DNA from: a bacterium
GTDB lineage: Bacteria > SAR324 > NAC60-12
Reading direction: 5' to 3'
DNA: 13,442 nucleotides
Assembly (NCBI GenBank): GCA_965233585.1
Contig: CBDDTI010000576.1
Location: forward strand, 1-13,442
This document shows positions 126 through 13,442 of the stretch, piece by piece (positions within the stretch are counted from its first letter, which is position 1; each line of letters opens with the position of its first letter). Made by a program: the position numbers and the translations under genes. The notes below the pieces were generated by a model. That model was not told where the DNA came from. It worked only from the letters and a program-made list of their open reading frames with translations, and ran no database searches.

Positions 126-971
126 ATGAGTTCAGGCGTGAAAAGAAAACCAAAGGATGAAATATACTCCATGTTTTTAGTCCCCAAAAGGCTATATCAT
201 TCTTTAATAAAAAATATAGAAGATAATGAAACAAAAAAAGAACTTATTTCTATGAATGAAAAACCAAATACGACCAATTACATTGAAAATGCCATTAATT
301 TTAAAAATTTACAAGACAGGCAAAAAATGAATCAAAGCGGTGATAAATTGTACCGTTTTGGTTCTGATAATATATCAAATGTTATGCCGCCAGTACAAGT
401 CGATAGCAGTACGGGTCGTACGTATCAATCTATTTCAAGATCAACAACCGCTCAAACTCCCCAACAAAAAGAAAATACCGCTCAGTTTTTGCCCACAACT
501 CCCGTTATGGAAAGGGAACCCGATCCAGACTTGTTTTATACCGCTTCAAGACCAAAAAGCAAGGACGATACTTCAACTCCTGACGTGCCAGAATGGCGAA
601 ATTCACCTGTTATAAAGGCATTGACACAAAAAAATTCAGACGGCAAAATAGTTTGTCCTTTTACCGCATGCGGGAAGCAGTATGTTGACGATGCACAATT
701 TGGCAAACACCTTGTAAGAGATCATATGAAAGAATTGTCCATATTTGACACAGAAAAAATTGGTAAAGATATAGCCTCAGTCTCTTCACAAGCATCAAAA
801 TCGCCTTCGGCTTCAATGTCATCCGTCAAAACAGGATCAGGAGGTGCAAAAAAGAAAACTTTTACTATTTCACCCGTACAAACTAGATCTAAATCAAAAA
901 AACTTTCAACAACTGATGCAGATGCTGTTAAAAAAAAATTACTTTTTTCGGGAAAATACCTGAAATTATAA
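126..971 (+). CDS. Maverick uncharacterised protein (281 aa) with one C2H2 zinc finger and a basic, Ser-rich C-terminus
   Basis: N-terminal MFLVPKRLYHSL resembles the 'MxLVP' start of the gene that commonly follows the pX-like gene in Mavericks. CPFTACGKQYVDDAQFGKHLVRDH (654-725) fits C-x4-C-x12-H-x4-H. Confidence 0.75.
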   Translation: MSSGVKRKPKDEIYSMFLVPKRLYHSLIKNIEDNETKKELISMNEKPNTTNYIENAINFKNLQDRQKMNQSGDKLYRFGSDNISNVMPPVQVDSSTGRTYQSISRSTTAQTPQQKENTAQFLPTTPVMEREPDPDLFYTASRPKSKDDTSTPDVPEWRNSPVIKALTQKNSDGKIVCPFTACGKQYVDDAQFGKHLVRDHMKELSIFDTEKIGKDIASVSSQASKSPSASMSSVKTGSGGAKKKTFTISPVQTRSKSKKLSTTDADAVKKKLLFSGKYLKL

Positions 972-988
972 TGAAAGTAAAATATATA

Positions 989-1470
989 TCATCGTTTATT
1001 TTCAAGTTTTTTTATAAAATGAGTTACAATTTCATCATTTTTTATTTTGGGTTTTTTTACAAAAATTTTAACAAATTGTTGAGGAGACATTAAATTGTTG
1101 CCCACGGATAAACAGAAAGCGGTCATGTACCAGCCGCAAAACAAAGAACGAAAATCCTGAACGGAATAAGACAGGATTGTTTTGAATGAGTTTTTTTCTA
1201 TCCAAGGCCGTAAGAACTTCATTAAACATTGATTCCATATCGGCGGTAAAAAACCGAATGAATCAAAATAATAGAGTTGATTTTTTCCGTTGATATACAT
1301 CGCTATGAAATGTGATCCTTTTTGATTTTTTTTGGATAAGTTGGTGATTAAGCAACAAGGCAACTCAAGCGAATCGGACGGCAAATTATCGCTTGAAAAA
1401 ACCCCGATGAAATATTTACATCTTGGTCGAATATAATTGGATAAAAAATATTTGATAATCCGTTTTCCAT
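989..1470 (-). pseudogene. Adenain-family (adenovirus-like) cysteine maturation protease, with a 1-nt frameshift near the 5' end
   Basis: Motifs FIGVFSSDNLP, GSHFIAM (His), YYFDSFG (Asp) and VQD..SLFCGWY (Gln/Cys). The main frame has no ATG upstream of these motifs before a stop at 1514-1516. The ATG at 1470-1468 (MENGLSNIF) joins it only if one T is added to the T6 run at 1448-1443. Confidence 0.88.
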
Positions 1471-1473
1471 AAT

Positions 1474-2817
1474 TTAATTTGTTCCTTTTATGACTTGTTG
1501 GAATTGATCTATTTTAATGCCGGAGTTAAAAACAGAAAAAGCCAGAACGTATATAGGATGAGGAGTTATTACGGAAAAAGCCAATTCTAAATCTAAATTT
1601 CCGTAATTTTCCGGATGTACGTGGAACGAATTACATTGATCCGGTGTTAAATCGGCCGCTAGAAAAAATCTTCCCTTTAAATATTGTTCATACGTTAAAC
1701 CAATGGATTGATTGCCGTGCGAAATGCCAATACTGTCGTATAAATGCCGATACAAGTCAATGGCGTCCCCCTCATTTATATTAGGTTGAAATGGTCTGGG
1801 AAATACGCATTGTCCGTTCTTTTTTAAATTAAAAGTAGACAGATTAAAATGTTGAAAATTGAAAGGGTTTTTGTCCGGGGCGTGTGACATGGCTTGATTG
1901 TGAACCATCACAAAAAACACTTGTTTCGGCAAAGTACCATTAGCGATATTGGCGATGTTAAAGGACGACACGCCTTGAGGAATAACATAATGTCTTAAAC
2001 GTGTGGCGCTAAAGGGCAGGTAGCACGGTTCTTTTAACAGTTTGTTTTTAAAACTTTCCCGTAGCAATAATGTGGGCAACACCTTTCTCATATGTAATTT
2101 GACATCTTTTAAAACAATTTTAAAAGGTTTTTCTGCCGCAGCATCTTGAAGCAAACCAAACTTTTCAGCGGATCTAACTAGCTTAATTTTGATGTCCACA
2201 TTCGGAGGTAAAAATCTGTCGGTGTCAAACAGATCAACGGCTAAGCGCGTATTAAAATACACTTTTTTACCATCCGTAATTAACTGCTTTCTTTTATTCA
2301 AAGACGGTGTGGCGGTTGTAACATTTATGGTATCAACTTCGTCAGCATTTTCGGGATAGTATCCTTCGGCAGCCAGATAAGTTTTTTTCACCTCCGAATT
2401 GTAACTTAGAAATGATTGTATGAACATTCTCCAAGGATAAGTGACCGCCGAACTTAAATCAGCTACTTGGACCCCGTTTAAATATACTTCTACTTGGCTG
2501 AATAAACAAGCGGCAAAATGATTAGCCAGTGTGACTTTAGTATCATTTTTTACCTGTTCACCATTGTCATTTGTCACTACAAAATAGCCGCTAAGTCTGG
2601 TTTGATTTAGTATAAAAGAGCATTCGTTATCGCGAGGAACAAGAAATTCGACCGGTCCGGTGTTGGTGATAGAAGCCACGCTATTGTAAATAACGTGAGC
2701 CCCGTCTAATAAACCTGTTTCTACTTCTAACGGTGAGTGAAGCGCTAAACCACTTTCAGTGCCGTCGTTTTGTTCAACGGCCAATCCGGCAATTCCGCTT
2801 TTTTCAGGTACGCCCAT
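1474..2817 (-). CDS. Double-jelly-roll major capsid protein (hexon-like), 447 aa
   Basis: Motifs typical of Maverick/adintovirus MCP: GPVEFLVP, NHFAACLFSQVEVYLNG, DRFLPPNVDIKIKLVRS, LPKQVFFVMV, NPFNFQHF, FFLAADLTPD, GNLDLELAF. ATG 2817 (MGVPEK) is preferred because the upstream extension to 3030 is antisense to the TBP gene. Confidence 0.92.
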   Translation of the reverse strand: MGVPEKSGIAGLAVEQNDGTESGLALHSPLEVETGLLDGAHVIYNSVASITNTGPVEFLVPRDNECSFILNQTRLSGYFVVTNDNGEQVKNDTKVTLANHFAACLFSQVEVYLNGVQVADLSSAVTYPWRMFIQSFLSYNSEVKKTYLAAEGYYPENADEVDTINVTTATPSLNKRKQLITDGKKVYFNTRLAVDLFDTDRFLPPNVDIKIKLVRSAEKFGLLQDAAAEKPFKIVLKDVKLHMRKVLPTLLLRESFKNKLLKEPCYLPFSATRLRHYVIPQGVSSFNIANIANGTLPKQVFFVMVHNQAMSHAPDKNPFNFQHFNLSTFNLKKNGQCVFPRPFQPNINEGDAIDLYRHLYDSIGISHGNQSIGLTYEQYLKGRFFLAADLTPDQCNSFHVHPENYGNLDLELAFSVITPHPIYVLAFSVFNSGIKIDQFQQVIKGTN

Positions 2818-2823
2818 AACAAG

Positions 2824-3366
2824 ATGGAAGTGCTGGTCAGCAATGTAAAAATTAGTTGTAAAGTTCATCTTATTAACAGCGACGAAATTTCTTTTAATAC
2901 CGATAATACAATAAAACGTTATAATAATTTTGTTGTAATAAGAAAAAAATATTCCTTTATTATATTTACCAAAACAAAACAAAATCGACATTTTCACGTA
3001 AACATTACAAAAATTCCCTCTACAGAACACATTGCGAAAGCATTAGACGAACTAAAACTTATTATAAATAGCGAATTTGTTGTTAAAATATTTAAAGTAG
3101 AAAACATGACTTGTTTGTATCAATCAAAAGAAGAGATCAAATTATTGAGATTTTACAACCATTTAAAATTGAATGAAGACTTTGAAATCATTCATAAGAG
3201 ATACGACCCAGAAAAATTCCCAGGCGTATTTTTAAAAATAAAAAAGTGTTCAGCTTTAATATTTTCGTCGGGAAAAATAGTTATAATTGGAGCCTCCAGC
3301 GAAGAAGATGCTAAACAAGGAATAAAAATTATTATTAAATTATTAAAAAAATATAAAATCGAATGA
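2824..3366 (+). CDS. Divergent TATA-binding protein (TBP)-like factor, 180 aa, core domain only
   Basis: C-terminal repeat FKVENMT...YDPEKFPGVFLKIKKCSALIFSSGKIVIIGASSEEDAKQG matches the TBP signature (YEPELFPGL...LIFxSGKxVxTGAK). The N-terminal repeat VSNVK...YNNFVVIR...IIF...VNITK is recognisable but diverged. Length from ATG 2824 equals a TBP core. AATAAA at 3407-3412. Confidence 0.92.
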   Translation: MEVLVSNVKISCKVHLINSDEISFNTDNTIKRYNNFVVIRKKYSFIIFTKTKQNRHFHVNITKIPSTEHIAKALDELKLIINSEFVVKIFKVENMTCLYQSKEEIKLLRFYNHLKLNEDFEIIHKRYDPEKFPGVFLKIKKCSALIFSSGKIVIIGASSEEDAKQGIKIIIKLLKKYKIE

Positions 3367-3422
3367 TGTGAATAATGTTTATTTAGTTGAGTTTTAATAT
3401 TTATACAATAAACATCAAAATT

Positions 3423-4181
3423 ATGCACGAGAAAGTAGATTATACTAAAATATGCAATCATGAATATCCAGTAGAAGACACCAGGCAAGGGGACGTGGTG
3501 TGTACCGAGTGTGGATTAGTTATTGATAAAATATATTGCTATAATTTAACAAAATCAAATTTGGAAACAGAATTGGACAAAATAAAAACATTTGATGAAG
3601 AAATTAAACAAAAAAACCGGCATTTAGAGAAAGAAAAAAATATTTTAAAAATTTTATGCAATAAATTACATTTAAATAATGATGTTACAAATGTTATTTT
3701 GAATCTATGGTCAGATATAGCAGCGTGGCATTATCGAAAAGGTGGAAAAATTAAAATAGATGCCAAAGGATTGGTGGTTATGACGTTGTATCAAGGGTTG
3801 ATAAAAGAAAAAATTCCCCGCCCGATAAGTCATTTGTGTCAAGAAGTCGGCGTTAATCCAAAGATAGTGTGGCGTTGGATGAAATTATACAGACGGGATT
3901 TGACTGACATGAATAAATTAGACAATTACATAAAAGCGAAAGATATGAAAGAATATTTTTTACAGCCGCTGCAGTTAAATTATCAAGAAATGACGTCCAT
4001 TGAACAAATATTAAAAAAAAATGAAAATAGTTCTTTTGCTCCAAGAACTTTATTAGCTGCATGCGCTTATGCCTTTTTAAAAGAATCCAAATTGCGATAT
4101 TTAAGCGTCAAAAATATGGCTCACATTTTAGGCGTCAGTGTTATGTCGTTGTACAGATGTCGTAAAAGTCTAAATCAATAA
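3423..4181 (+). CDS. TFIIB-like transcription initiation factor, 252 aa (zinc ribbon plus two cyclin-fold repeats)
   Basis: Zn ribbon CNHEYPVEDTRQGDVVCTECGLVID (cf. TFIIB CxxH...EDxxxGDxxCxxCGLV). Repeat 1: LCNKLHL...TLYQGLIKEKIPRPISHLCQEVGV. Repeat 2: APRTLLAACAY...SVKNMAHILGVSVMSLYR. First ATG is at 3423. Confidence 0.9.
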   Translation: MHEKVDYTKICNHEYPVEDTRQGDVVCTECGLVIDKIYCYNLTKSNLETELDKIKTFDEEIKQKNRHLEKEKNILKILCNKLHLNNDVTNVILNLWSDIAAWHYRKGGKIKIDAKGLVVMTLYQGLIKEKIPRPISHLCQEVGVNPKIVWRWMKLYRRDLTDMNKLDNYIKAKDMKEYFLQPLQLNYQEMTSIEQILKKNENSSFAPRTLLAACAYAFLKESKLRYLSVKNMAHILGVSVMSLYRCRKSLNQ

Positions 4182-4190
4182 TATACATAT

Positions 4191-4592
4191 ATGAATTACC
4201 ACAGCGGTTTACATTGGCAACGAGGTTCGGGAATTGGATCGCTTTTTTCCGGAATTTTTCGCGGATTAATGCCGGTAGCAAAATCGACGATAAAAACTAT
4301 TGGACGTGTAGCCAAAAGCGCCCCGATAAAATCTGTAGGAAAAGCTTTAAAAAAAGAAGCGACAAGAGCGGCTGTAGAAACGGCGATAGAAGCTTTGGAG
4401 GGTCAACCGGTGGGCAGAAAAGCAAAACAACGTTTAAAATCCGCTACACGAGGTATTTTGCTTAACGCTGCCCGACAAGCCGATAGCAACGACGACTATC
4501 GAACTCAAAATTCGAACAGAAAAAGGAAACCCTCGTCAATTACGCAATCTAGGAAAAAAAGGCGCAAAATATTGAAAGAACCTCTGTTTTAA
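4191..4592 (+). CDS. pVII-like basic virion core (DNA-condensing) protein
   Basis: N-terminal QRGSGIGSLFSGIFRGLMP motif typical of the Maverick/adintovirus core protein. Lys/Arg-rich with C-terminal RKRK and RKKRRK, ending in a terminal Phe. Confidence 0.88.
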   Translation: MNYHSGLHWQRGSGIGSLFSGIFRGLMPVAKSTIKTIGRVAKSAPIKSVGKALKKEATRAAVETAIEALEGQPVGRKAKQRLKSATRGILLNAARQADSNDDYRTQNSNRKRKPSSITQSRKKRRKILKEPLF

Positions 4593-5681
4593 ATGTCGAC
4601 AACGACAAAAGAGACTTTTTTAAAAGAATACGCGAAACCGGGTTCGCCAATAGCTTTTGCGTCTCCCGCCCTAATCTATCATTATTATGAGAAACAAATC
4701 CCTTTGACGTTAATCGAGGAGTGGCTAAAAGGAACAGACTCCTACACATTACACAAACAGCCTAAATTTCCCAGACCGAGAAATCCAACATTTGCTTATC
4801 GAAAACGGTATCAGTTTCAAATTGACCTTATAGATTTAGGAAATTTGGCTGAACAAAATGATTCTAATAGATACCTTTTGACAGCCATTGATATTTTTAC
4901 ACGATTTGCCTTTGTAGAACCACTAAAAAATAAAATGGCAAAAACATTTATGGAAGGCTTTGAATCTATTATGAAAAGAGCAAAACAATTTCCGCGTAGA
5001 ATTTTAGCCGATAAAGGAGCGGAAATTAAGAATAAATTGTTTCAAGCCTACTGCAAAAACAATAACATTCTTCTGTTACACAGCAATAATTTTGTGCACG
5101 CCCCCTTTGTGGAAAGATTTAACCGAACTTTAAAAAACCTATTGTTTAGATACATGACTCACGAAAATACCGATAGGTACATTGACGCGTTACCCTTTCT
5201 TGTCCATACCTACAACAATCGTAAACATCGCATGATCGGAATGTCACCCGCTGAAGCAGAACTCCCCGGAAGAACCTATCACATTAGAAGAAAACAAGAA
5301 TTGGTTTATTCAAAGATTAAAAGAACGAAACCAAAATACAAAATCGGTCAAACCGTGCGTATTAGTATTATGAAGGGAAAATTTGACAGAGGATTTACGC
5401 CGCAATTCAAAGAAGAAATTTTTAAAATAAAATCAATTTCTACACGTTTGCCAAAACCCACTTATGAGTTAGAGACTTTGGAACAGGATGAAACTTTGGA
5501 AGGAAATTTTTATGAAAGTGAACTTACACCAGTAGATGAGCCAGAAGTATTTGCCATCGAAAAGATTCTCCGGACCAAAAAAGATAAAAAAACCGGAGAA
5601 AAAATGGCTTTAATAAAATGGAAAGGGTATAAAAACCCTAGTTGGACATACGAAAAAGACATAGTCGATATGCCACAATAG
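4593..5681 (+). CDS. Retroviral-like (rve, DDE) integrase with C-terminal chromodomain, Maverick type
   Basis: FQIDLIDL (D), YLLTAIDIFTRF, ILADKGAE (D), VERFNRTLK (E), YNNRKHRMIGMSP, PKYKIGQTVRI, FYESEL, and chromodomain-like AIEKIL...LIKWKGY...SW. Intact 362-aa ORF whose ATG directly abuts the upstream TAA. Confidence 0.96.
   Translation: MSTTTKETFLKEYAKPGSPIAFASPALIYHYYEKQIPLTLIEEWLKGTDSYTLHKQPKFPRPRNPTFAYRKRYQFQIDLIDLGNLAEQNDSNRYLLTAIDIFTRFAFVEPLKNKMAKTFMEGFESIMKRAKQFPRRILADKGAEIKNKLFQAYCKNNNILLLHSNNFVHAPFVERFNRTLKNLLFRYMTHENTDRYIDALPFLVHTYNNRKHRMIGMSPAEAELPGRTYHIRRKQELVYSKIKRTKPKYKIGQTVRISIMKGKFDRGFTPQFKEEIFKIKSISTRLPKPTYELETLEQDETLEGNFYESELTPVDEPEVFAIEKILRTKKDKKTGEKMALIKWKGYKNPSWTYEKDIVDMPQ
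5628..5634 (+). promoter_or_regulatory. Candidate TATA box for the penton gene, inside the integrase coding sequence
   Basis: TATAAAA starts 60 nt upstream of ATG 5688, and the intergenic gap is only 6 nt. It could simply reflect the G-Y-K-N codons in AT-rich DNA. Confidence 0.3.
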
Positions 5682-5687
5682 CGCGGA

Positions 5688-7427
5688 ATGGATTATAACA
5701 TTTATTGCGTGTCAAACGCTAGTTCCGATACGGATGACAAAAATACTTTAAATTCTTTTACCAATTTATTTCCACAAAATTTAGACTTGAAAGATAGAGA
5801 ATGGGAAATTGGAATAGTGTCTATTGGATTACATTATAATTACAACCAATTAGCTTTGTCAAAAGGCCAACCTTGTTTTATCACGTTAAAAAACGAATTA
5901 ACATCTATAGACTCTTCGGAAGAAGACATAAGGTCCGAAATTTTAGACCAGACAAAATCCATTTGGGTTTTGCCTGATTTAGATGAAGATGTATTGACAG
6001 TGCATAGACTGATGCAAAACTTGATGCAATATATTTACAAGGAAGGAATGAGATTGTATAGTTTTAAACCCAAATCAGGGGGTAAAGATGAAAAAGCTTA
6101 CGTAATAGATGAAAATCCGAAAAAAGAAATGGAAAATGAAAATTACAATTATAATAGATATTTGTTGATACATAAACATTTAATAAAAATTTTAAGGTTA
6201 AAATATTACCAAAACGGCTTTGTGTCCTCCCAAGCAAAAACAATTAAGTTATTCGACAACGAATATGCATACTTTTCTGTAAAGAAAAATTTTGCGCTTC
6301 TAACTACAGCAATTAATGCGTATTCCGTTTTGAAGCCCGGTCTGGTTCAAATAAAATCAAATATTATTTCCGACGTTCCCAGCGGAAATAGTTATTCTAC
6401 AATTATGTTTACAACGACTTTGCCTAATCAAATGGAAGGTCATTATTTTTACCATAATGTAAAAAAAATCAGATATTATCAGGTGCGACAAACCAATATC
6501 GAAACGATAAACACACAATTTACAGATTCTTTTGGAAATCTTTTAAGTTTAAACGAAGGACAGCCGTCTATAGTGCATTTTCATTTAAAAGAAAAAGACA
6601 AAAATATGGATTACGAATTAACGCACGTACGAATTGATTCACAAGTAGATACCAAATTGAATTACGAAAATACAAATAGTAGCTTTTGGGTGCACTTAAA
6701 ACATCCAATAAGTTTGAATCAAAACGCAAAAATAGCCTTGATGGATATATCTTTTCCCAACACCATATGTAGCATTCCAGAATCAATTGGAAGGAATCCG
6801 TTTATCTTTAATGTGTTGATGAACCAAAACGAAACAAAAAGACACGTCGTGGAAATACCAAAACTTTATTTCTGCAACTCTGATGATCTAACAACATCAA
6901 TGAACCGTCTGTTATCTGAAGAACTAAAGGAAATTTTACATTTTGACAACTTTAACGGATTCTTTAGGATTGTGGCTAAAACAAATAAACCCTTTTCGAT
7001 AAGCATTCCCAAAAACTTTTGCCCGTTTTTAGGAATGTACGATTACACGGAGAAAGAACTTGCAAGAATTGAGGAACGAGGTGATTACGTCACGCTTGCA
7101 GTGACTAAGGAAAGATTTTTTGAAGCACCACAACCAATAGACGTTTACAAGTTATATCCCGGTGTTATGATATGTTATGCAAATTTTGTTCAACATTCCA
7201 TTATTGGAGACAAATTTTACCCAATATTTAGAGTTATACCAACAATCGGCCAATCCACACAAAATGATTACTGTTCTATCCATTTCGAACATTTAGAATT
7301 CATAAGATGCAATGTCGATTATTTAGACAACATGAAGATCGAGCTGAGGAGATTAGACGGGAATTTGATTGAATTTAACGACGATCGAAGAGTAATTTTA
7401 AACATTGTAATTAAAAATCCGATTTAA
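5688..7427 (+). CDS. Minor capsid protein (penton-like) with two tandem single-jelly-roll modules, 579 aa
   Basis: Module 1: SNAS...NTLNSFTNLFPQNLDL...WEIGIVSI ... IETINTQFTDSFGNLL...IVHFHLK. Module 2 from Met307 (6606): DS...NTNSSFWVHLKHPISL...KIALMDISFP ... ICYANFVQHSIIGD...LDNMKIELRRLDGNLIEF...ILNIVIK. Confidence 0.88.
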   Translation: MDYNIYCVSNASSDTDDKNTLNSFTNLFPQNLDLKDREWEIGIVSIGLHYNYNQLALSKGQPCFITLKNELTSIDSSEEDIRSEILDQTKSIWVLPDLDEDVLTVHRLMQNLMQYIYKEGMRLYSFKPKSGGKDEKAYVIDENPKKEMENENYNYNRYLLIHKHLIKILRLKYYQNGFVSSQAKTIKLFDNEYAYFSVKKNFALLTTAINAYSVLKPGLVQIKSNIISDVPSGNSYSTIMFTTTLPNQMEGHYFYHNVKKIRYYQVRQTNIETINTQFTDSFGNLLSLNEGQPSIVHFHLKEKDKNMDYELTHVRIDSQVDTKLNYENTNSSFWVHLKHPISLNQNAKIALMDISFPNTICSIPESIGRNPFIFNVLMNQNETKRHVVEIPKLYFCNSDDLTTSMNRLLSEELKEILHFDNFNGFFRIVAKTNKPFSISIPKNFCPFLGMYDYTEKELARIEERGDYVTLAVTKERFFEAPQPIDVYKLYPGVMICYANFVQHSIIGDKFYPIFRVIPTIGQSTQNDYCSIHFEHLEFIRCNVDYLDNMKIELRRLDGNLIEFNDDRRVILNIVIKNPI

Positions 7428-7429
7428 AT

Positions 7430-7443
7430 TTTATTTCAATAAA
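7430..7443. terminator. Back-to-back polyadenylation signals at a convergent gene junction
   Basis: AATAAA on + at 7438-7443, just after the penton stop. AATAAA on - at 7435-7430, immediately after the TGA of the 7436..7741 ORF. Confidence 0.55.
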
Positions 7444-7741
7444 ACAATTTATTTGAAAATAACGAATTATTGGTGAGATTTAATAAAGAAATATCTACTA
7501 AAGTTTGATTCGCAAAATTAAGCGCCTTTAAACCGTTATAAGTTAGTCCGTACATTAACCAAAGAAAAACGGAAGTAATAACAATAATTGATAAAATCAT
7601 CGCGCACAGACTACAACAATCGTTTCTTGAACAAAAATCAGGAGATTGCAAATCTTGATGAAACGTATCTTGGTCTACTTCTTCAAAACGGGATGTTTTA
7701 TCTTGGTCAGAATTTGACGTTCGGCGCAAAGAGACGCTCAT
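7436..7741 (-). CDS. Small single-pass membrane protein (101 aa), unknown function
   Basis: Polar N-terminus, Cys cluster (FCSRNDCCSLC), hydrophobic AMILSIIVITSVFLWLMYGL, then three N-x-S/T sequons (NQT, NLT, NNS). Its ATG overlaps the upstream stop (ATGA), and a poly(A) signal follows the stop. Confidence 0.7.
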   Translation of the reverse strand: MSVSLRRTSNSDQDKTSRFEEVDQDTFHQDLQSPDFCSRNDCCSLCAMILSIIVITSVFLWLMYGLTYNGLKALNFANQTLVDISLLNLTNNSLFSNKLFY

Positions 7742-8139
7742 ACTTCTACTACTTCTTCACGAATTGGATAATGTTCTAAACAGAAATCTTTACACAACAA
7801 TTTCATGCAAAATGACGCATAAAAATGGAAAACTTTCATTTCATTCGAAATTTCACGATGCCACCATAATTTGGTATCGGAGTCGCGTGAATTATTAAGT
7901 TTGCCAAGAAGTTTGTCTTTGATGCAAGCCCTGTACTGCACCAATTCACTGTCCAGAGATTCTAATGCTTCGTTGATTTTACGAAGATGCGCGCACATGC
8001 GACGCAAAGAATGATGCACAACGCGGTTCGGGTCGGAAGTATCATAAATACCGGTAACATCAGGACCGGTATATTCGTCTCCCCAGTCGGAATTGTGCGA
8101 CGATGATGATTTTGACTGCTTGTTGTCTTGACCACTCAT
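7738..8139 (-). CDS. Hypothetical protein (133 aa), probably helical/coiled-coil
   Basis: Open frame from ATG 8139 (MSGQDNKQ) with a Ser-rich N-terminus and an amphipathic stretch LRKINEALESLDSELVQY. Coupled by an ATGA overlap to the membrane protein gene. No family recognised. Confidence 0.6.
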   Translation of the reverse strand: MSGQDNKQSKSSSSHNSDWGDEYTGPDVTGIYDTSDPNRVVHHSLRRMCAHLRKINEALESLDSELVQYRACIKDKLLGKLNNSRDSDTKLWWHREISNEMKVFHFYASFCMKLLCKDFCLEHYPIREEVVEV

Positions 8140-8245
8140 GATGCACAACTGAAACAATATATTACACAGACATTTCTAATAAATATTAAAAGCGCGCTCG
8201 AACTTTCGAAGTGGTTTGTCACAATTTTAAAATTCTTGCACGTGA

Positions 8246-8940
8246 CTTGATAAATTAAAATCTAGCCAGCGTACAGGAATTTAAAAAGCATGACCAATGT
8301 TCTTGATAATGAAGTCTTGCGCTTGGGTGTGCTTCCGACGATGTAGATTGCTTCCAATCTTAAGGCATTTGTAGGGTTCAAATTATTTTTAAAAAATTTG
8401 AACGGTACACCTACCAAAAGAACGAGAAGCCGATGTTCACAATTAATGATGAAAACAATCACAAACGCATTCACCAATAAAATATTATAGCACAATTTAC
8501 TAATTATAAACACGTATTTGACGAAGTATTCGAAGTAACTTCTCATAGTTTATTGACCATAGAGTATTGCTTAATAAAATAAAAATTAAGCAAATAATCT
8601 ACAGTGAAAAAGCATGAGGGAGAATAATCTTCTTGATGACGATGATGTGGATTATTTACAATCTTAAGGCGTTTGTAAAACGCAAATAATGTATGGAAAA
8701 ATTTGAGCTTCACATACTGCCAAAAGAGTGTAAAGAACGGTATTCTTGATGGATGATGAAAACCACTCACAAATTAAATTAACATGTCGCATTTTATAAA
8801 ATCTTATTCGGCGGAGTATTTGAAGTGCCTTCTCATAATTTATCGGCCCTTGGGTAGAGCTTAATAAAATAATTCAGCAGCTACACAAAGGTCAAAAAAG
8901 CGTGAGAAAATGTTCTTGGCAATTAGGATGAAGATATTTC
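8246..8940. repeat. Diverged direct tandem repeat, ~290-325 bp unit, two copies plus part of a third
   Basis: Unit starts cttgataaattaaaa / cttaataaaataaaa / cttaataaaataatt at 8246, 8570 and 8860, each followed by aaaaagc(a/g)tga...aat(g/c)ttcttg. Shared blocks caatcttaaggc(a/g)tttgta at 8355/8659 and agtatt(c/t)gaagt..cttctcata.tttat at 8525/8815. Confidence 0.75.
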
Positions 8941-9779: not shown

Positions 9780-10090
9780 CGGCTTGCAACAGGCTCAATC
9801 GAGCCTGTAATCGGCTTGCAACAGGCCGATTGCAGACGAAAACAAGCCGATTACAGGCTCGATTGAGCCTGTTGCAAGCCGATTGCAGACGAAAACAAGC
9901 CGATTGCAGGCTCGATTGAGCCTGTTGCAAGCCGATTGCAGACGAAAACAAGCCGATTACAGGCTCGATTGAGGTTGTTGCAAGCCGATTGCAGACGAAA
10001 ACAAGCCGATTGCAGGCTCGATTGAGGTTGTTGCAAGCCGATTGCAGACGAAAACAAGCCGGTTGCAGACGATTACAAGCCGATTTCAGG
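9780..10090. repeat. 53-bp tandem array (4 full copies plus a partial) preceded by an inverted partial copy
   Basis: Unit gccgattgcagacgaaaacaagccgatt(a/g)caggctcgattgag(cc/gt)tgttgcaa starts at 9825, 9878, 9931, 9984 and 10037. 9780-9818 is the exact reverse complement of 9843-9881. Confidence 0.97.
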
Positions 10091-10674: not shown

Positions 10675-13442
10675 TCCAACAAGACCCGTCCACCTGAAAT
10701 AGAGTTCATCAACCCCACGCTATCAGTAGGCAATAATTCTCAACTCTTTACTGATAGTTATCCCTCTTTTACAGCCATGTGTCCGACCATTACTCCTGTG
10801 GCTGAGATAAATCTCCAGCCTGGCCGAGCACACGGATATAGCGCATACGTCCCCATTCGGTTAGGAAAGCTCGCGATCAACGCCTTCGTTGACAGCGGGA
10901 ATTCCTTCGCCAACGTTATCTCCCCACAGATGATGACCGCCCTTGGCATTAAGACTTCACAACTGGAGCCCATACACCAACTCTCCTTTGGCACTGCGGC
11001 TGCGGGCAAGAAAATGAAGGTACTAGGACAGGCCTCGCGACTCGAACTGCAATTTGGCCAACACCTGGCGAAATTCCGCATCCGACCCCTGGTGCTACAA
11101 GGATTGGTGCACCCTCTGAACCTGTGTGGGCCGTTCCTTCGACGTGTCGGGATAGATCAACTCCACTCCCGGGGCATTTGGCGGATCCACGGAATAGAAG
11201 TCCCGATGTTCTCCCCTCATCGCACAAAGTTGCTGCCGTCTTCTCCTGAGGTGTGCACCCTCCACTTGGCCACGCCCTCCACAGGTCAACAACATTATCA
11301 TCCATACGGGCCGTCGGTCGAAGCTCGATCTGGCCCCGAGGCGAGGAGGATTGAAGGAAGATCTTGCTGTGTCCTACCTGTACAACTGGAGCTGCCTCTT
11401 CCTGCGGGAGCCCTAGTGTTACTCCAGCCCACCGCGCGATCTCTCCTAGGCGATAACCCGGTTCTGCAGGAGGTCCGGGCCGATGGCAGCCTGGCCGTGT
11501 TGGTTGACAATCTAGAATGTGTAGATGTCGACCTAGAACCAGGTGCCCTTGTTGGATCTGTGCAAGATGTCACCACCACTCCGACCATGATCCACGCGGA
11601 TAACTCTCCCCCTCCGGAAGCCTCCACGCACGCCGAGTTTGATGCCCTTCCTCAAGATGAGAAGATCAAGTGGCTGGTGACACAATTTCGACTCGACGAG
11701 GCCCCAGTGCTACAAAGGGACCCCCGCCTGCGGAAGGAAGTCATCCGCACCCTACTCCAATTCTCCGACGTCATCTCGATCTGTGGGTATGGTAAGACTA
11801 ACCTTATCTCTCATCCGGGGATTACTCCAATCAAGATGAAGCACCGACCATTGAATCCTGTCATGGAAGAATCTCTACGACAACAGATTGATCGGTGGTT
11901 GGAACAGTGGGTGGTAGAGGAAGCAGACTCGCCGTGGTCTTTTCCTCTTGTCCCCGTTCCCAAGAAGAATAGCAAGGAGGTCCGCTGGGCTGTCGACCAC
12001 ATGAAGCTCAATGCCGTCACAAAGAAGGATGCCTTCCCGCTCCCCAATATCGCCGACAACCTGTCTCGCCTTGCCGGTAGCCACGTCTTCTCTGCTCTTG
12101 ATGGAGCCAGAGCCTTCCATGCCGTCCCTGTACGGTGCGCAGATTGGGAGAAAACGGCGTTCTCTTCCCCGTTTGGACAGTACCAGTTCGTTAGGATGCC
12201 CTTTGGCTTGGCCAACGCCCCCGACACTGACTCGAGGCTGGTCGCCAGAGCGTTGCACCATTTGCCTTCATCGGAAGTCCTTTGCTACCTGGACGACACG
12301 GCTGTCCACTCCAAGGATGCTTGGTCCTCCACAAAGTCTTGACAGCTTTCGGTGCCGCCGGCCTCCAAATCTCACCGGGAAAGGCCCAATTGTTCCGGGA
12401 TCACATCAAATACTTGGGACATGAGATCAGCACTCGCGGGATCAGCATTTCTCCGGAGTACACTTCCGTCATCAAAGATTGGCCGATCCCCGACACTCTG
12501 AAGATGCTAAGGGCCTTCTTGGGGAAATGCGGGTACTACCAGCGGTCCATTGAAGACTACGCCACCATCTCTGCGCCTCTCGTCCAATACACCCAGCAGG
12601 AACAGCATGAAGGGTCCCCCAGTTTCAATGAGAACCCTTCATCCTTGACACCGACTTTAGTCGCAGGATGGGCAGGAGCGAGTGATCGCCTATGGAGCAC
12701 GACTGCTTCTGCCAAGGGAGCAAAGTTATGCCTCAACCAAGGGAGAGCTACTTGCGGTAATCTTCTTCCTCTAGTACTATAAATATTACCTTTTACACAG
12801 GCCCTTTATTTTGCGTACTGACAACCTGGCACTCACCTGGATTCGCTCCTTGGAATCCCCAACCGGGATGATCCTGCGATGGTTGGAGATCCTCGCCAGC
12901 TTTGGTTTCACTGTCAAACACAGGAAGGGCACTCTACATGGAAACTCAGACTCCCTGTCCCGGGCACCTCACGCATCTTTCCCTTCCCGGGAAGAAGAAA
13001 AGGTCCTCGTGAGTGACGAGGCCACCGTCATCGCTGCCATACAAGCTCCCCCAGGATTCACTGCGGAAGAGATCAAGGATCACCTAAAGAGGGATGAGCA
13101 TCTTCAAGATGTTTAAAGGTGGAAGACAGAGCCGCCCTCCGAGACGGAGAAACAATTGCTGTCTCCTGACCAGAGAAGGCTCCTTGCATTCCTGCCTTCC
13201 CTGCATCAAGATCCTTCCTCCGGTCTCTGAAGTCTTCAGACCCAAAAAGAGGGAACCTTGAGTGAAGCGCCTCTACGTCCCCCACGCCCTGCGCCATCGG
13301 GTCATCGAAGCCGCTCATCTGTTTTTAGGACATGCTGGCATCAATGCCACTGCTCACTTCTGCCGGAAACGGGTCTACATGTTCTGGTTGGTACCGGAAG
13401 TCCATCGCATCCTCCACCAATGTCACGCATGTGAAGTGAAGA
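10630..13442 (+). pseudogene. pol: pol polyprotein (aspartic protease, RT, RNase H, start of integrase), disrupted
   Basis: AFVDSG (10891); SPWSFPLVPVPKK, KTAF, MPFGLANAP and YLDD (12286-12297); frameshift near 12325; YLGH and LRAFLGKCGYY; RNase H FILDTD, ERVIAYGAR, ELLAV, RTDN, DSLSR with in-frame TAG at 12772-12774; integrase zinc domain AAHLFLGHAG...CHAC (about 13310-13432). Confidence 0.95.

What the first reader, a model, noticed from the sequence alone, without database searches (positions are those of the whole stretch)
2824..4181. A Maverick/adintovirus encoding its own TBP + TFIIB pair: a candidate virus-encoded preinitiation module
Seen: intact, adjacent, co-oriented, intronless TBP-like and TFIIB-like ORFs packed between the major capsid gene (6 nt away) and the pVII-like gene (9 nt away), with composition similar to the viral genes. 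Established: TBP and TFIIB form the minimal promoter-recognition core for Pol II and archaeal RNAP. Many Nucleocytoviricota carry both with their own RNAP, and beta/gammaherpesviruses use a TBP mimic (UL87/ORF24/BcRF1) to recruit host Pol II to late promoters. To my knowledge these two factors are not in the described Maverick/adintovirus core gene set. Inference: this small virus may assemble its own initiation complex on late (structural) promoters using host polymerase; no RNAP gene is in this window.
Basis: partly seen in the sequence, partly recalled or inferred. Interest (0 to 1): 0.95.

Follow-up and report, generated by a model that had tools for sequence, protein, structure and literature searches.

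The report
Virus-like transposon with own TBP and TFIIB
An integrated virus-like DNA element carries, between its capsid-like gene and its integrase, two intact genes for divergent copies of TBP and TFIIB, the two proteins that mark promoters for RNA polymerase II, which suggests that this small element directs the host's transcription machinery with factors of its own.

Summary
ORF 2824-3366 (+, 180 aa) is a two-lobed TBP homologue: Pfam PF00352 E 4.4e-19; model pLDDT 92; every listed Foldseek PDB row to rank 44 is a TBP. ORF 3423-4181 (+, 252 aa) is a short TFIIB homologue. It has a zinc ribbon, 12 of 20 residues identical to human TFIIB, plus two cyclin repeats. Gaps to the neighbours are 6 and 9 nt as stated.

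Both genes sit inside an AT-rich element with a capsid-like gene, an adenain-like protease, a basic protein and an rve+chromodomain integrase. No PolB, packaging ATPase or element ends lie in the window, and the capsid fold is unverified, so "Maverick/adintovirus" is likely but only partly tested.

Both proteins have families of intact relatives down to 49% (TBP) and 38% (TFIIB) identity. Some apparently share contigs with each other and with the capsid-like gene. This argues for selection.

Most likely the pair recognises element promoters and recruits host Pol II; this is inferred, not shown. One paper's figure legend notes a "TBP" gene in related viruses. Ten literature searches found no TFIIB in Mavericks, polintons or adintoviruses. 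I rate it a new variant of a known kind, interest about 0.7.

The parts
2824..3366 (+). TBP-like gene (180 aa). It has two lobes. The C lobe (about residues 85-180) is canonical. The N lobe (about 1-84) is divergent, with a shortened S2-S3 stirrup and no H1 helix.
   Evidence: Pfam PF00352 E 4.4e-19, residues 90-177. NCBIfam archaeal TBP model NF001593 E 3.8e-16 spans residues 30-177, below its cut-off. AlphaFold model pLDDT 92, pTM 0.82. Foldseek PDB rows to rank 44 are all TBP, E from 1.3e-10, TM 0.61-0.72 over about 192-202 columns. Family invariants include Y127, E130, F132, P133, F147, G150, K151.
3423..4181 (+). TFIIB-like gene (252 aa). It has a zinc ribbon (about residues 10-36), a variable spacer (about 37-66) where the B-reader and B-linker would be, and two cyclin-like repeats (about 67-165 and 166-252), each ending in an HTH-like motif.
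   Evidence: Pfam PF08271 29.1 bits against a cut-off of 29.0, matched by 30 of 31 family members; PF00382 matched by 7 of 31. Family profile against PDB: human TFIIB 8.3e-8, colinear. Model pLDDT 74.4. Foldseek PDB listed rows 1-38 are TFIIB, TFB or Brf chains, best 4.2e-9, but TM is only 0.29-0.46. Atlas neighbours are TFIIB-repeat clusters, score 0.94.
1474..2817 (-). Capsid-like gene (447 aa), divergent from the TBP-like gene with 6 nt between the start codons. It belongs to a very large family; one member is named 'F54H12.2-like' by a source.
   Evidence: Relatives of 99% to 26% identity, typically about 447 aa. 16,403 representatives at E<=0.001. Atlas score 0.98 to animal clusters in which 15-24% of members carry PF21738 DJR-like_dom. 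1 of 101 proteins scanned (window copy plus 100 representatives) hits PF21738, E 7e-4. No Pfam hit for the window's copy or for 24 family members, and no PDB hit.
989..1498 (-). Adenain-like cysteine protease reading frame. The frame is open from before the capsid-like gene's stop. There is no in-frame ATG upstream of the putative catalytic His; the first in-frame ATG (1300) lies after it.
   Evidence: Three-frame translation. Pfam PF00770 Peptidase_C5 is the only hit, E 0.035 and below cut-off. The only 3 PDB hits are adenains, E 0.7-1.5, aligned over the catalytic His region.
4191..4592 (+).
   Evidence: ORF. No Pfam family. The label was not tested further.
4593..5681 (+). Integrase (362 aa): rve catalytic core plus a C-terminal chromodomain. 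Its start follows the stop codon of the previous gene with no spacer.
   Evidence: Pfam PF00665 E 4.8e-9 (36.8 bits, cut-off 32.6). PF00385 E 7.6e-5 (23.0 bits, just below the 25.1 cut-off).
5688..7427 (+). 579-aa ORF of unknown family, the last gene of the plus-strand block. AATAAA follows at 7438.
   Evidence: ORF. No Pfam hit. PDB hits only at E>=0.15. Poly(A)-signal positions.
126..971 (+). 281-aa Ser/Thr/Lys-rich ORF with one C2H2-like motif, on the far side of the protease gene. It shows that the element continues to the left edge of the window.
   Evidence: ORF and translation. No significant Pfam hit.
7436..8139 (-). Two small minus-strand ORFs (133 aa, then 101 aa with a hydrophobic segment), convergent with the plus-strand block.
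   Evidence: ORFs. No significant Pfam hit.

Best explanation
The window holds most of an endogenous Maverick/adintovirus-like element. Its gene order is capsid-like gene and adenain-like protease on one strand, then TBP-like, TFIIB-like, basic protein, integrase and a 579-aa ORF on the other. The two genes in question are real, selected homologues of the basal transcription factors TBP and TFIIB.

Shown:
- The TBP-like protein keeps the saddle fold. It also keeps the C-terminal stirrup and the two phenylalanines of the C lobe.
- Its N lobe is remodelled (short stirrup, no H1 helix), yet it is the better conserved half within the family.
- The TFIIB-like protein keeps a metazoan-type zinc ribbon and both cyclin repeats.
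- It has only a short, unconserved spacer where the B-reader and B-linker lie in cellular TFIIB.

Inferred mechanism:
- The viral TBP binds an AT-rich box in element promoters.
- The viral TFIIB core binds the retained C-terminal stirrup and the flanking DNA.
- Its ribbon docks on host RNA polymerase II.
- The element thus builds a private minimal promoter-recognition complex that needs neither host TFIID nor, given the lost N-terminal stirrup, TFIIA.
- No polymerase gene is in the window.
For: Folds.
- TBP.
- TFIIB.

Pol II-docking ribbon. 12 of 20 aligned residues are identical to the human TFIIB ribbon. Within the family, mean ribbon identity to the window's copy is 0.66 against 0.27 for the spacer.

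TFIIB-binding stirrup of TBP. Y127, E130, F132 and P133 are invariant in 23 aligned sequences. In the model the S2'-S3' loop has 8 residues (127-134), while the N-lobe S2-S3 loop has 3 (33-35). That TFIIB binds the C-terminal stirrup and TFIIA the N-terminal one is recalled textbook structural knowledge.

Selection.
- 21 of 36 TBP-family hits are full length (>=178 aa), at 50-99% BLAST identity (49% in alignment A1).
- 31 of 48 TFIIB-family hits are full length (>=224 aa), at 39-98% BLAST identity (38% in alignment A2).
- 5.5% (TBP) and 6.8% (TFIIB) of all possible single-base changes in these ORFs create stops. My rough hand estimate is that about 10 and about 26 stops would be expected on neutral paths to 50% and 40% identity.

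Linkage, inferred from identical 'longest_contig' lengths.
- TBP and TFIIB families share 4 lengths: 6759, 10894, 8156, 14469.
- TBP and capsid-like families share 3: 5974, 11868, 8156.
- TFIIB and capsid-like families share 5: 11734, 5966, 21519, 8156, 6860.
- TFIIB identity falls with capsid identity (73/82, 48-53/74-75, 41/55), as expected for co-inheritance.

Embedding. Virus-type genes lie on both sides at 6 and 9 nt.
Against: - No binding, promoter or polymerase contact was tested.
- The TFIIB-like model is mediocre (pLDDT 74, pTM 0.43). Global TM-scores to TFIIB are low, 0.29-0.46.
- The best NCBIfam hit of the TFIIB-like protein is an IS3 transposase HTH region (33.9 bits), slightly above archaeal TFB (31.3 bits); both are far below their cut-offs.
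- 21 of 31 family members match generic HTH models.
- The window's copy does not reach Pfam PF00382 at E<=0.01.
- The region that in cellular TFIIB reads the template strand and helps open DNA is not conserved. A canonical Pol II initiation role is therefore not assured.
- The N lobe of the TBP-like protein is recognised by structure and by one below-cut-off NCBIfam match, not by Pfam.
- The divergent start codons are 6 nt apart, so there is no obvious intergenic promoter for either the capsid-like or the TBP-like gene.
- Contig sharing rests on equal contig lengths, not on sequence I could read.
- The capsid-like family has 16,403 representatives, against tens of TBP/TFIIB relatives found with a different, less sensitive tool. 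The pair may be confined to one sublineage.
Confidence: 0.55

Rival explanations
1. Decoy or host shut-off. The pair does not build productive complexes on element promoters. It competes with host TBP/TFIIB (for TATA boxes, for the Pol II dock, or for host TFIIB/TBP themselves) to damp or redirect host transcription, for example antiviral or silencing genes.
For: The B-reader/B-linker region needed for productive initiation in cellular TFIIB is replaced by a short spacer with 27% mean identity to the window's copy and pLDDT <50. A ribbon that docks without a reader could block Pol II. The N-lobe surfaces of TBP are remodelled.
Against: Both cyclin repeats and their HTH-like ends are conserved (0.57 and 0.59 mean identity to the window's copy), as is the TBP C-terminal stirrup. 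This fits a DNA-bound TBP-TFIIB complex better than simple sequestration. A decoy would need only one of the two proteins.
Confidence: 0.15
2. The pair serves a non-host polymerase. This could be one encoded elsewhere in full-length copies, outside the window. Alternatively it could be that of a co-infecting large DNA virus, as virophages and some polinton-like viruses depend on giant-virus transcription.
For: In every established case that I know of, a viral TBP plus TFIIB pair accompanies a viral multisubunit RNAP (NCLDVs; poxvirus VITF-3, abstract of PMC12917281). Atlas neighbours of the TFIIB-like protein include Nucleocytoviricota clusters. The left part of the element is not in the window. 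Relatives lie on contigs of up to 44 kb.
Against: The ribbon is closest to human TFIIB among solved structures: 12 of 20 identical, family profile E 8.3e-8 for human against 0.18 for yeast TFIIB. The structural matches of the TBP model to viral TBPs have only 6-19% identity, against 19-27% to cellular and archaeal TBPs. The element is integrated in a host genome with a retrovirus-type integrase, which implies nuclear residence. RNAP genes are not part of any described Maverick or adintovirus (recalled).
Confidence: 0.1
3. Pol III-type use. The TFIIB-like protein acts like Brf with the viral TBP to drive small non-coding RNAs of the element.
For: Brf1 and Brf2 chains are among the Foldseek hits, E 7.4e-6 to 6.2e-4.
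Against: Pol II TFIIB chains score 3-5 orders of magnitude better. The protein ends right after the second cyclin repeat, so it lacks the C-terminal extension that in Brf1/Brf2 binds TBP and Bdp1 (that role is recalled). No Rfam RNA was found in the window.
Confidence: 0.05
4. Passenger genes or a mis-call. Either these are captured host genes drifting without function, or the second ORF is a zinc-ribbon plus HTH DNA-binding protein (transposase-like) unrelated to TFIIB.
For: IS3-transposase HTH is the top NCBIfam hit, 33.9 bits. There are many generic HTH Pfam hits. 15 of 36 TBP-family hits and 17 of 48 TFIIB-family hits are truncated, so many copies do decay.
Against: Intact full-length relatives exist down to 49% and 38% identity with many invariant positions. 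The alignment to human TFIIB is colinear over ribbon and core. Foldseek matches core-only TFIIB crystal structures: 1c9b_A at 1.6e-7 and 5wh1_B at 2.3e-7. Atlas neighbours are TFIIB-repeat clusters.
Confidence: 0.04

Closest known systems
TBP and TFIIB homologues of Nucleocytoviricota (giant viruses, asfarviruses, iridoviruses)
   Same: Virus-encoded copies of both basal factors. The TBP model matches many NCLDV TBP-like proteins in BFVD: 51 hits at E<=0.001, best 3.4e-11. The nearest atlas clusters of the TFIIB-like protein include Nucleocytoviricota TFIIB-repeat proteins.
   Different: Those viruses carry their own multisubunit RNA polymerase and genomes of 100 kb or more. Here the carrier is a small integrating element and no RNAP gene lies in 9.5 kb of it. 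Identity to the viral TBPs is only 6-19%, lower than to cellular and archaeal TBPs at 19-27%.
Poxvirus VITF-3 (atypical TBP/TFIIB heterodimer)
   Same: A virus-specific TBP-like plus TFIIB-like pair acts as a dedicated promoter-recognition factor for one gene class (abstract of PMC12917281).
   Different: VITF-3 forms a closed ring that is loaded onto DNA by the viral RNA polymerase in the cytoplasm (same abstract). The proteins here are near-canonical in size and domain order, with a metazoan-like ribbon.
Beta/gammaherpesvirus late-gene vPIC with a viral TBP mimic (UL87 / ORF24 / BcRF1)
   Same: A nuclear DNA virus without its own RNAP uses a TBP-fold protein to bring host Pol II to a subset of viral promoters (recalled knowledge). 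BcRF1 and Ranid herpesvirus 2 ORF75 appear among the structural matches of the TBP model, E 5.4e-4 and 1.3e-5.
   Different: Herpesvirus vTBPs are large multidomain proteins (BcRF1 577 aa, ORF75 440 aa) with no sequence similarity to TBP. They contact Pol II directly without a viral TFIIB (recalled). Here TBP is recognisable by sequence and comes with a TFIIB.
'TBP' accessory gene noted in MELD viruses with adintovirus-like PolB (Starrett et al. 2021, Virus Evol 7:veaa055)
   Same: A TATA-binding-protein homologue in a midsize linear dsDNA virus related to polintons. It is listed in the Fig. 5 legend, and in the preprint's Fig. 6 legend as one of the 'homologs of host proteins' (passages, sections 3.1, 3.2 and 3.4 read).
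   Different: It is only a legend entry. The figure and supplements were not visible to me, so I cannot say which virus carries it or whether it is the same family. 'TFIIB' does not occur in either version. No function or pairing is discussed.
Cellular TBP paralogues with TFIIB (TRF2/TBPL1, TBPL2) and the multiple TBP/TFB pairs of archaea
   Same: Alternative TBP/TFIIB-type factors direct the same polymerase to separate promoter sets (recalled). The strongest sequence matches of the TBP-like protein in PDB are archaeal TBPs, 3.5e-19. The best for the TFIIB-like protein is human TFIIB.
   Different: Here both factors are carried by a mobile element, are intronless and tightly packed. TBP has a truncated N-terminal stirrup. 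TFIIB lacks a conserved reader and linker.

Membership tests
TBP (Pfam PF00352, TBP-like fold) | Two tandem alpha/beta repeats forming one saddle | tested here: met
   The model has S1-S5 plus H2 in both halves. Foldseek aligns about 192-202 columns to whole TBP cores, TM 0.61-0.72, E from 1.3e-10. By sequence, only the C repeat passes Pfam (residues 90-177). One below-cut-off NCBIfam match spans residues 30-177.
TBP (Pfam PF00352, TBP-like fold) | Pairs of DNA-kinking phenylalanines in each lobe | tested here: inconclusive
   C lobe: F132 and F147 are invariant. N lobe: F48 is invariant, but the position of the second Phe falls in the deleted stirrup region of alignment A1. That these are the kinking residues is recalled from yeast and human TBP.
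TBP (Pfam PF00352, TBP-like fold) | C-terminal stirrup (TFIIB contact) and N-terminal stirrup (TFIIA contact) | tested here: inconclusive
   The C-terminal stirrup is present and invariant (Y127, E130, F132, P133; 8-residue loop). The N-terminal stirrup is reduced to a 3-residue loop, with a 7-column gap against archaeal TBPs. One feature is met and the other is not.
TFIIB / TFB family | N-terminal zinc ribbon (PF08271) | tested here: met
   29.1 bits against a cut-off of 29.0 in the window's copy. 30 of 31 family members match, best 7.8e-9. Ligand positions H13, C27 and C30 are conserved. 12 of 20 residues are identical to the human ribbon.
TFIIB / TFB family | Two cyclin-fold core repeats (PF00382) | tested here: met
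   The family profile aligns colinearly to the human TFIIB core: profile positions 63-246 to residues 106-285. Foldseek matches core-only structures 1c9b_A at 1.6e-7 and 5wh1_B at 2.3e-7. Caveats: PF00382 is reached by only 7 of 31 members at E<=0.01 and not by the window's copy. TM-scores are <=0.46.
TFIIB / TFB family | Conserved B-reader and B-linker between ribbon and core | tested here: not met
   There are about 30 residues (37-66) where, as I recall, human TFIIB has about 70. Mean identity to the window's copy within the family is 0.27. pLDDT is <50 for residues 35-64. Length varies in A2.
Maverick / Polinton / adintovirus | Retrovirus-type (rve) integrase | tested here: met
   PF00665 E 4.8e-9, above cut-off, with a C-terminal chromodomain-like match just below cut-off.
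Maverick / Polinton / adintovirus | Adenain-like (Ulp1-type) maturation protease | tested here: inconclusive
   PF00770 is the only Pfam hit, at E 0.035 and below cut-off. The only 3 PDB hits are adenains, at E 0.7-1.5. His, Asp, Gln and Cys are seen in the expected order in the translation. There is no in-frame ATG before the His.
Maverick / Polinton / adintovirus | Double jelly-roll major capsid protein (and a penton protein) | tested here: inconclusive
   Atlas neighbours at 0.98, with PF21738 in 15-24% of their members. 1 of 101 proteins scanned (window copy plus 100 representatives) hits PF21738. Pfam matched 0 of 24 family members and PDB profile searches found nothing. No penton was identified.
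Maverick / Polinton / adintovirus | [quoted passage not shown] | not testable with these tools
   None lies within the window. The element runs off the left edge. Two scans of the prokaryote genome collection found no relative.

The most novel reading that the evidence does not exclude
A lineage of small, integrating, capsid-bearing elements of animals carries an orthogonal, co-evolving TBP-TFIIB pair. This pair forms a private minimal pre-initiation module on host RNA polymerase II, independent of TFIID and TFIIA. It would be the first such module outside viruses that own a polymerase. It could also be a living example of the intermediate step (basal factors before polymerase) expected if giant-virus transcription systems were assembled from Maverick-like ancestors.
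Probability: 0.3. Interest if true: 0.85.

Novelty: new variant of a known kind. Interest (0 to 1): 0.7.

Why it matters
Mavericks, polintons and adintoviruses are thought to rely wholly on the host for transcription. The viral TBP/TFIIB pairs I know of accompany a viral RNA polymerase. A 180-aa TBP and a 252-aa TFIIB carried by a small integrating element would make a compact, natural, possibly orthogonal promoter-recognition system for Pol II. That raises several questions:
- How such elements time capsid expression.
- How they escape host promoter control or silencing.
- What minimal features (ribbon, core, one stirrup) suffice to recruit Pol II.
- How viral transcription machineries were acquired in Bamfordvirae.

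All of this can be tested directly with two small recombinant proteins and reporter constructs.

Tried and rejected
- Complex prediction of TBP-like (A1) with the TFIIB-like core (A2, residues 67-252): verdict 'no answer', score 0.00 in two runs, controls not folded. This is no evidence either way.
Organisms and accession names of the relatives therefore stayed unknown.
- Related loci: scans of the prokaryote genome collection with the TFIIB family and the capsid-like family (one search failed because the alignment was too diverse) found no relative. Synteny could therefore not be read from DNA, and dN/dS could not be computed.
- Capsid fold: Pfam matched 0 of 24 family members. Of 101 proteins scanned (window copy plus 100 representatives), 1 matched PF21738. 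PDB profile searches with A3 and A5 found nothing.
- The 579-aa ORF: no Pfam family and only chance-level PDB hits.
- Rfam: 0 matches.
- Promoter motif: the 13-mer TTTTAATATTTAT occurs exactly twice, upstream of the TFIIB-like ORF and of the 133-aa minus-strand ORF. With up to 2 mismatches there are 7 matches against 2.7 expected, and 3 of 200 shuffles reach 7. This is too weak to call a promoter element. At the TFIIB-like gene it lies only about 20-30 nt from the ATG.
- Archaeal origin of the TBP: archaeal TBPs score best. However, A1 contains 4 archaeal-like rows, and the signal comes from one repeat matching both symmetric archaeal repeats. I draw no conclusion on origin.
- Literature: the search for 'F54H12.2' found 0 papers.
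Full report
**Layout of the window**

The first ~9.5 kb are AT-rich (GC 0.28-0.40 per 500 nt). From about 9500 the GC content rises to 0.45-0.59. The GC-rich part holds a Gypsy-like protease plus reverse-transcriptase ORF (10777-12342; RVT_1 E 1.5e-13).

The AT-rich part carries these ORFs:

| Coordinates | Strand | Size | What |
|---|---|---|---|
| 126-971 | + | 281 aa | unknown ORF |
| 989-1498 | - | frame | adenain-like protease frame |
| 1474-2817 | - | 447 aa | capsid-like gene |
| 2824-3366 | + | 180 aa | TBP-like gene |
| 3423-4181 | + | 252 aa | TFIIB-like gene |
| 4191-4592 | + | 133 aa | basic ORF |
| 4593-5681 | + | 362 aa | integrase |
| 5688-7427 | + | 579 aa | unknown ORF |
| 7738-8139 | - | 133 aa | small ORF |
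| 7436-7741 | - | 101 aa | small ORF |

An ORF also runs in from the left edge of the window, so the element is cut by the window.

**The observation**

- Both ORFs are uninterrupted and co-oriented.
- The nearest capsid-like relative is 447 aa at 99% identity (P0089). This fixes that gene's start at 2817, 6 nt from the TBP-like ATG on the opposite strand.
- The basic ORF starts 9 nt after the TFIIB-like stop.
- GC and GC3 of the pair (0.26/0.23 and 0.31/0.29) sit at the low end of the element's range (0.31-0.43 and 0.26-0.40). They are far from the flank's 0.56/0.61.

**The TBP-like protein**

- Pfam TBP matches residues 90-177 at E 4.4e-19, 68.5 bits against a cut-off of 22.9.
- phmmer against PDB sequences finds 35 TBP sequences; the 36th match is a chance-level hydrolase at E 0.75. 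The best is 3.5e-19.
- NCBIfam's archaeal TBP model NF001593 aligns residues 30-177 to profile positions 40-183, at E 3.8e-16. This is below its family cut-off.
- AlphaFold2 was run on an alignment of 23 sequences: the window's copy, 18 of the 36 family hits, and 4 archaeal-like TBPs. It gives pLDDT 92 and pTM 0.82.
- In Foldseek against the PDB, all listed rows to rank 44 are TBP chains. E starts at 1.3e-10, TM is 0.61-0.72, and about 192-202 columns align, which covers both lobes. From rank 45 the hits are unrelated, at E>=1.1e-3.
- In the model the C lobe has the full S1'-H1'-S2'-S3'-S4'-S5'-H2' order, with an 8-residue S2'-S3' stirrup (127-134).
- The N lobe has no H1 helix and only a 3-residue S2-S3 loop (33-35). 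This matches a 7-column gap against archaeal TBPs in A1.
- Invariant across all 23 rows are Y127, E130, F132 and P133 (the C-terminal stirrup) and F147, G150 and K151. F48 is invariant in the N lobe.
- Within the element family the divergent N lobe is the better conserved half: mean identity to the window's copy is 0.67, against 0.56 for the C lobe.

**The TFIIB-like protein**

- The Pfam TFIIB zinc ribbon just reaches its cut-off, 29.1 against 29.0 bits.
- 30 of 31 family members match the ribbon, 7 of 31 match the TFIIB repeat PF00382, and 6 of 31 match Cyclin_C. In addition, 21 of 31 match the generic HTH_23 model.
- The ribbon is 12 of 20 residues identical to the human TFIIB ribbon.
- A profile of the family matches human TFIIB at 8.3e-8 in two colinear pieces: the ribbon, and profile positions 63-246 against residues 106-285. 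Yeast TFIIB reaches only 0.18 and Brf2 0.33.
- The model is mediocre: pLDDT 74.4, pTM 0.43, and below 50 in residues 1-9, 35-64 and 164-168. It has twelve helices in residues 44-251.
- In Foldseek, listed rows 1-38 are TFIIB, archaeal TFB or Brf chains, best 4.2e-9. They include the core-only crystals 1c9b_A (1.6e-7) and 5wh1_B (2.3e-7). Cyclins follow from rank 39.
- TM-scores are only 0.29-0.46, with rmsd up to 25 Å. The domain folds match, but their mutual arrangement does not.
- The nearest ESM-Atlas clusters (score 0.94) are TFIIB-repeat proteins of Apicomplexa and of viruses, including Nucleocytoviricota.
- Against the reading: the best NCBIfam hit is the HTH region of IS3 transposases (33.9 bits), just above archaeal TFB (31.3 bits). 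Both are far below their cut-offs.
- I take those HTH hits to reflect the helix-turn-helix ends of the two cyclin repeats. I do not read them as evidence for a transposase.
- The stretch between ribbon and core (37-66) is short, variable in length and poorly conserved (0.27 mean identity to the window's copy). By comparison, the ribbon has 0.66 and the two repeats 0.57 and 0.59. A conserved B-reader/B-linker is therefore not present.

**Relatives and selection**

- The word-indexed search found 40 proteins for the TBP-like query. Of these, 36 form the element family at 50-99% BLAST identity over the aligned part; 21 are full length (>=178 aa) and 15 are shorter. The other 4 are archaeal-type TBPs.
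- In alignment A1 the most distant full-length family member is 49% identical to the window's copy.
- The same search found 48 proteins for the TFIIB-like query at 39-98% BLAST identity. 31 are at least 224 aa and 17 are shorter. In alignment A2 the lowest identity is 38%.
- The closest 90% clusters hold 23 members (TBP), 38 (TFIIB) and 70 (capsid-like). This points to a multi-copy element.
- None of these proteins carries a name from its source.
- I could not read their DNA. However, identical 'longest contig' lengths link the families:
  - TBP with TFIIB share 4 lengths: 6759, 10894, 8156, 14469.
  - TBP with capsid-like share 3: 5974, 11868, 8156.
  - TFIIB with capsid-like share 5: 11734, 5966, 21519, 8156, 6860.
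  - One length, 8156, has all three proteins at full length (P0020, P0067, P0100).
- This linkage is an inference from lengths, not from reading the contigs.
- On those apparent contigs, TFIIB identity falls together with capsid identity: 73% at 82%, 48-53% at 74-75%, and 41% at 55%. This fits inheritance with the element.
- In the window's ORFs, 5.5% (TBP) and 6.8% (TFIIB) of all possible single-base changes create a stop.
- By my own rough arithmetic (Kimura-type correction, indels ignored), about 10 and about 26 stop mutations would be expected on neutral paths to 50% and 40% identity.
- Full-length relatives at that distance therefore imply purifying selection. The many truncated hits show that individual copies do decay.

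**What the carrier is**

- The integrase has an rve core above the Pfam cut-off and a chromodomain match just below it.
- The frame at 989-1498 (-) gives Peptidase_C5 (adenain) as its only Pfam hit, at E 0.035.
- Adenains are its only three PDB hits, at E 0.7-1.5, aligned across the catalytic His region. His, Asp, Gln and Cys follow in the expected order in the translation.
- This copy has no in-frame ATG ahead of the His. An ATG right after the capsid-like stop is in another frame. The protease gene may therefore be damaged, or started in another way.
- The capsid-like protein belongs to a very large family: 16,403 representatives at E<=0.001 and 4,573 at 1e-30.
- One member of that family is named 'uncharacterized protein F54H12.2-like [Zophobas morio]'.
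- Its atlas neighbours (score 0.98) are animal clusters, with Arthropoda and Echinodermata commonest. PF21738 'DJR-like_dom' occurs on 15-24% of their members.
- Pfam matched 0 of 24 family members.
- In a second scan of 101 proteins (the window's copy plus 100 representatives), only 1 matched PF21738, at 7e-4.
- PDB profile searches found nothing.
- So 'major capsid protein' is a reasonable lead but not a result.
- PolB, the packaging ATPase, a penton and the terminal repeats are not in the window.
- I conclude that the element is Maverick/adintovirus-like, with membership only partly tested.

**How it most likely works (inference)**

- Established knowledge, recalled: TBP bends a TATA-like box, the TFIIB core binds TBP's C-terminal stirrup and the flanking DNA, the TFIIB ribbon docks on Pol II, and TFIIA binds TBP's N-terminal stirrup.
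- The element's proteins keep exactly the TBP-TFIIB-polymerase chain of contacts: the C-terminal stirrup, both cyclin repeats, and a human-like ribbon.
- The most economical reading is a private promoter-recognition pair that brings host Pol II to element promoters.
- I cannot say which promoters. The plus-strand genes from TFIIB-like to the 579-aa ORF are packed with 0-9 nt between them and end at an AATAAA at 7438.
- The capsid-like and TBP-like genes start 6 nt apart head to head, so their control regions must lie inside neighbouring coding sequence or in spliced leaders.
- The rivals are a decoy or host shut-off role, service to a non-host polymerase, Pol III-type use, and functionless passengers. 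They are set out in the Rival explanations section with their evidence.

**Comparison with what is known**

- Structural matches among viral proteins are NCLDV TBP-like proteins and, further down the list, herpesvirus ORF75 and BcRF1. Identity is 6-19%, lower than to cellular and archaeal TBPs at 19-27%.
- Poxvirus VITF-3 is an atypical TBP/TFIIB pair that is loaded onto DNA by the viral polymerase (abstract of PMC12917281).
- The herpesvirus late-gene vTBP is the nearest functional analogue for a virus without its own polymerase (recalled).
- Ten literature searches were run.
  - 'polinton'+'TFIIB' returned 18 papers, of which 15 were listed. I judged the listed ones by title and abstract start, and I read the TFIIB passages of one (10.1101/2022.05.25.493380); there TFIIB refers to NCLDV core genes.
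  - 'Mavericks'+'TFIIB' returned 2 papers and 'adintovir'+'TFIIB' returned 2. None concerns a Maverick TFIIB, judged by titles and abstract starts.
  - 'polinton'+'TBP' and 'polinton'+'TATA binding protein' lead to Starrett et al. 2021 and its preprint. [quoted passage not shown] - Term searches inside seven further papers on Mavericks, polintons, PLVs and animal-virus gene transfer found no TBP, TFIIB or TATA.
- Figures and supplements were not visible. They could show a TFIIB-like ORF next to that TBP, or the same family. This limits my novelty claim.

**Verdict**

- The carrier's classification and the mechanism remain inferences.
- A viral TBP in this broad group has been noted before, in a legend. 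A TBP plus TFIIB pair in a small integrating element without a visible polymerase gene was not found in print.
- I rate it a new variant of a known kind, interest 0.7.

Noticed in passing
window 989-1498 (-): The adenain-like protease frame has no in-frame ATG upstream of the putative catalytic His. The first in-frame ATG (1300) lies after it, and an ATG directly after the capsid-like stop is in a different frame. This copy's protease may be damaged, or expressed in an unusual way.
   Followed up: partly
window 3392-3404 (+) and 8179-8191 (-): The exact 13-mer TTTTAATATTTAT occurs twice, both times in one of the few non-coding stretches. One copy is about 20-30 nt upstream of the TFIIB-like ATG, next to an AATAAA at 3407. 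The other is about 40 nt upstream of the 133-aa ORF. With up to 2 mismatches there are 7 sites against 2.7 expected. It could be a shared TATA-like element or chance.
   Followed up: partly
window 8205-8872: Degenerate direct repeats with a period of about 290-324 nt (2-3 copies, 73-78% identity) lie in the non-coding AT-rich stretch to the right of the last ORFs. They may be subterminal repeats of the element.
   Followed up: no
window 9825-10068: A tandem array of a 53-nt unit (4.6 copies, 96% matches) lies where composition switches from AT-rich to GC-rich.
   Followed up: no
window 10777-13116 (+): The GC-rich flank carries a Gypsy-like retroelement: an aspartyl protease plus RVT_1 ORF (10777-12342), with further ORFs in other frames (12282-12782, 12811-13116) that I did not test. 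The virus-like element therefore lies next to, or within, another repeat.
   Followed up: partly
window 2818-2991 (-): The minus-strand frame of the capsid-like gene stays open for 58 more codons upstream of its real start, antisense to the first third of the TBP-like ORF. Relatives of 447 aa show that this extension is not part of the protein.
   Followed up: yes
window 2800-2823 (+): A pyrimidine run followed by CAG (TTTTTTCAG) lies 16 nt before the TBP-like ATG, which is in a good Kozak-like context (A at -3, G at +4). It looks like a possible splice acceptor for a leader, but it is also simply the antisense of capsid-like codons.
   Followed up: no
relatives: The capsid-like family is vast (16,403 representatives at 50% clustering), while only tens of TBP-like and TFIIB-like relatives were found, with a different and less sensitive tool. 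The pair may mark one sublineage of a much larger group of elements.
   Followed up: partly
window 126-971 (+), 7436-7741 (-): The 281-aa ORF is rich in Ser, Thr and Lys and has one C2H2-like motif (C-x4-C-x12-H-x4-H). The 101-aa ORF has a hydrophobic, Cys-rich segment that looks like a membrane anchor. Neither has a family match.
   Followed up: no
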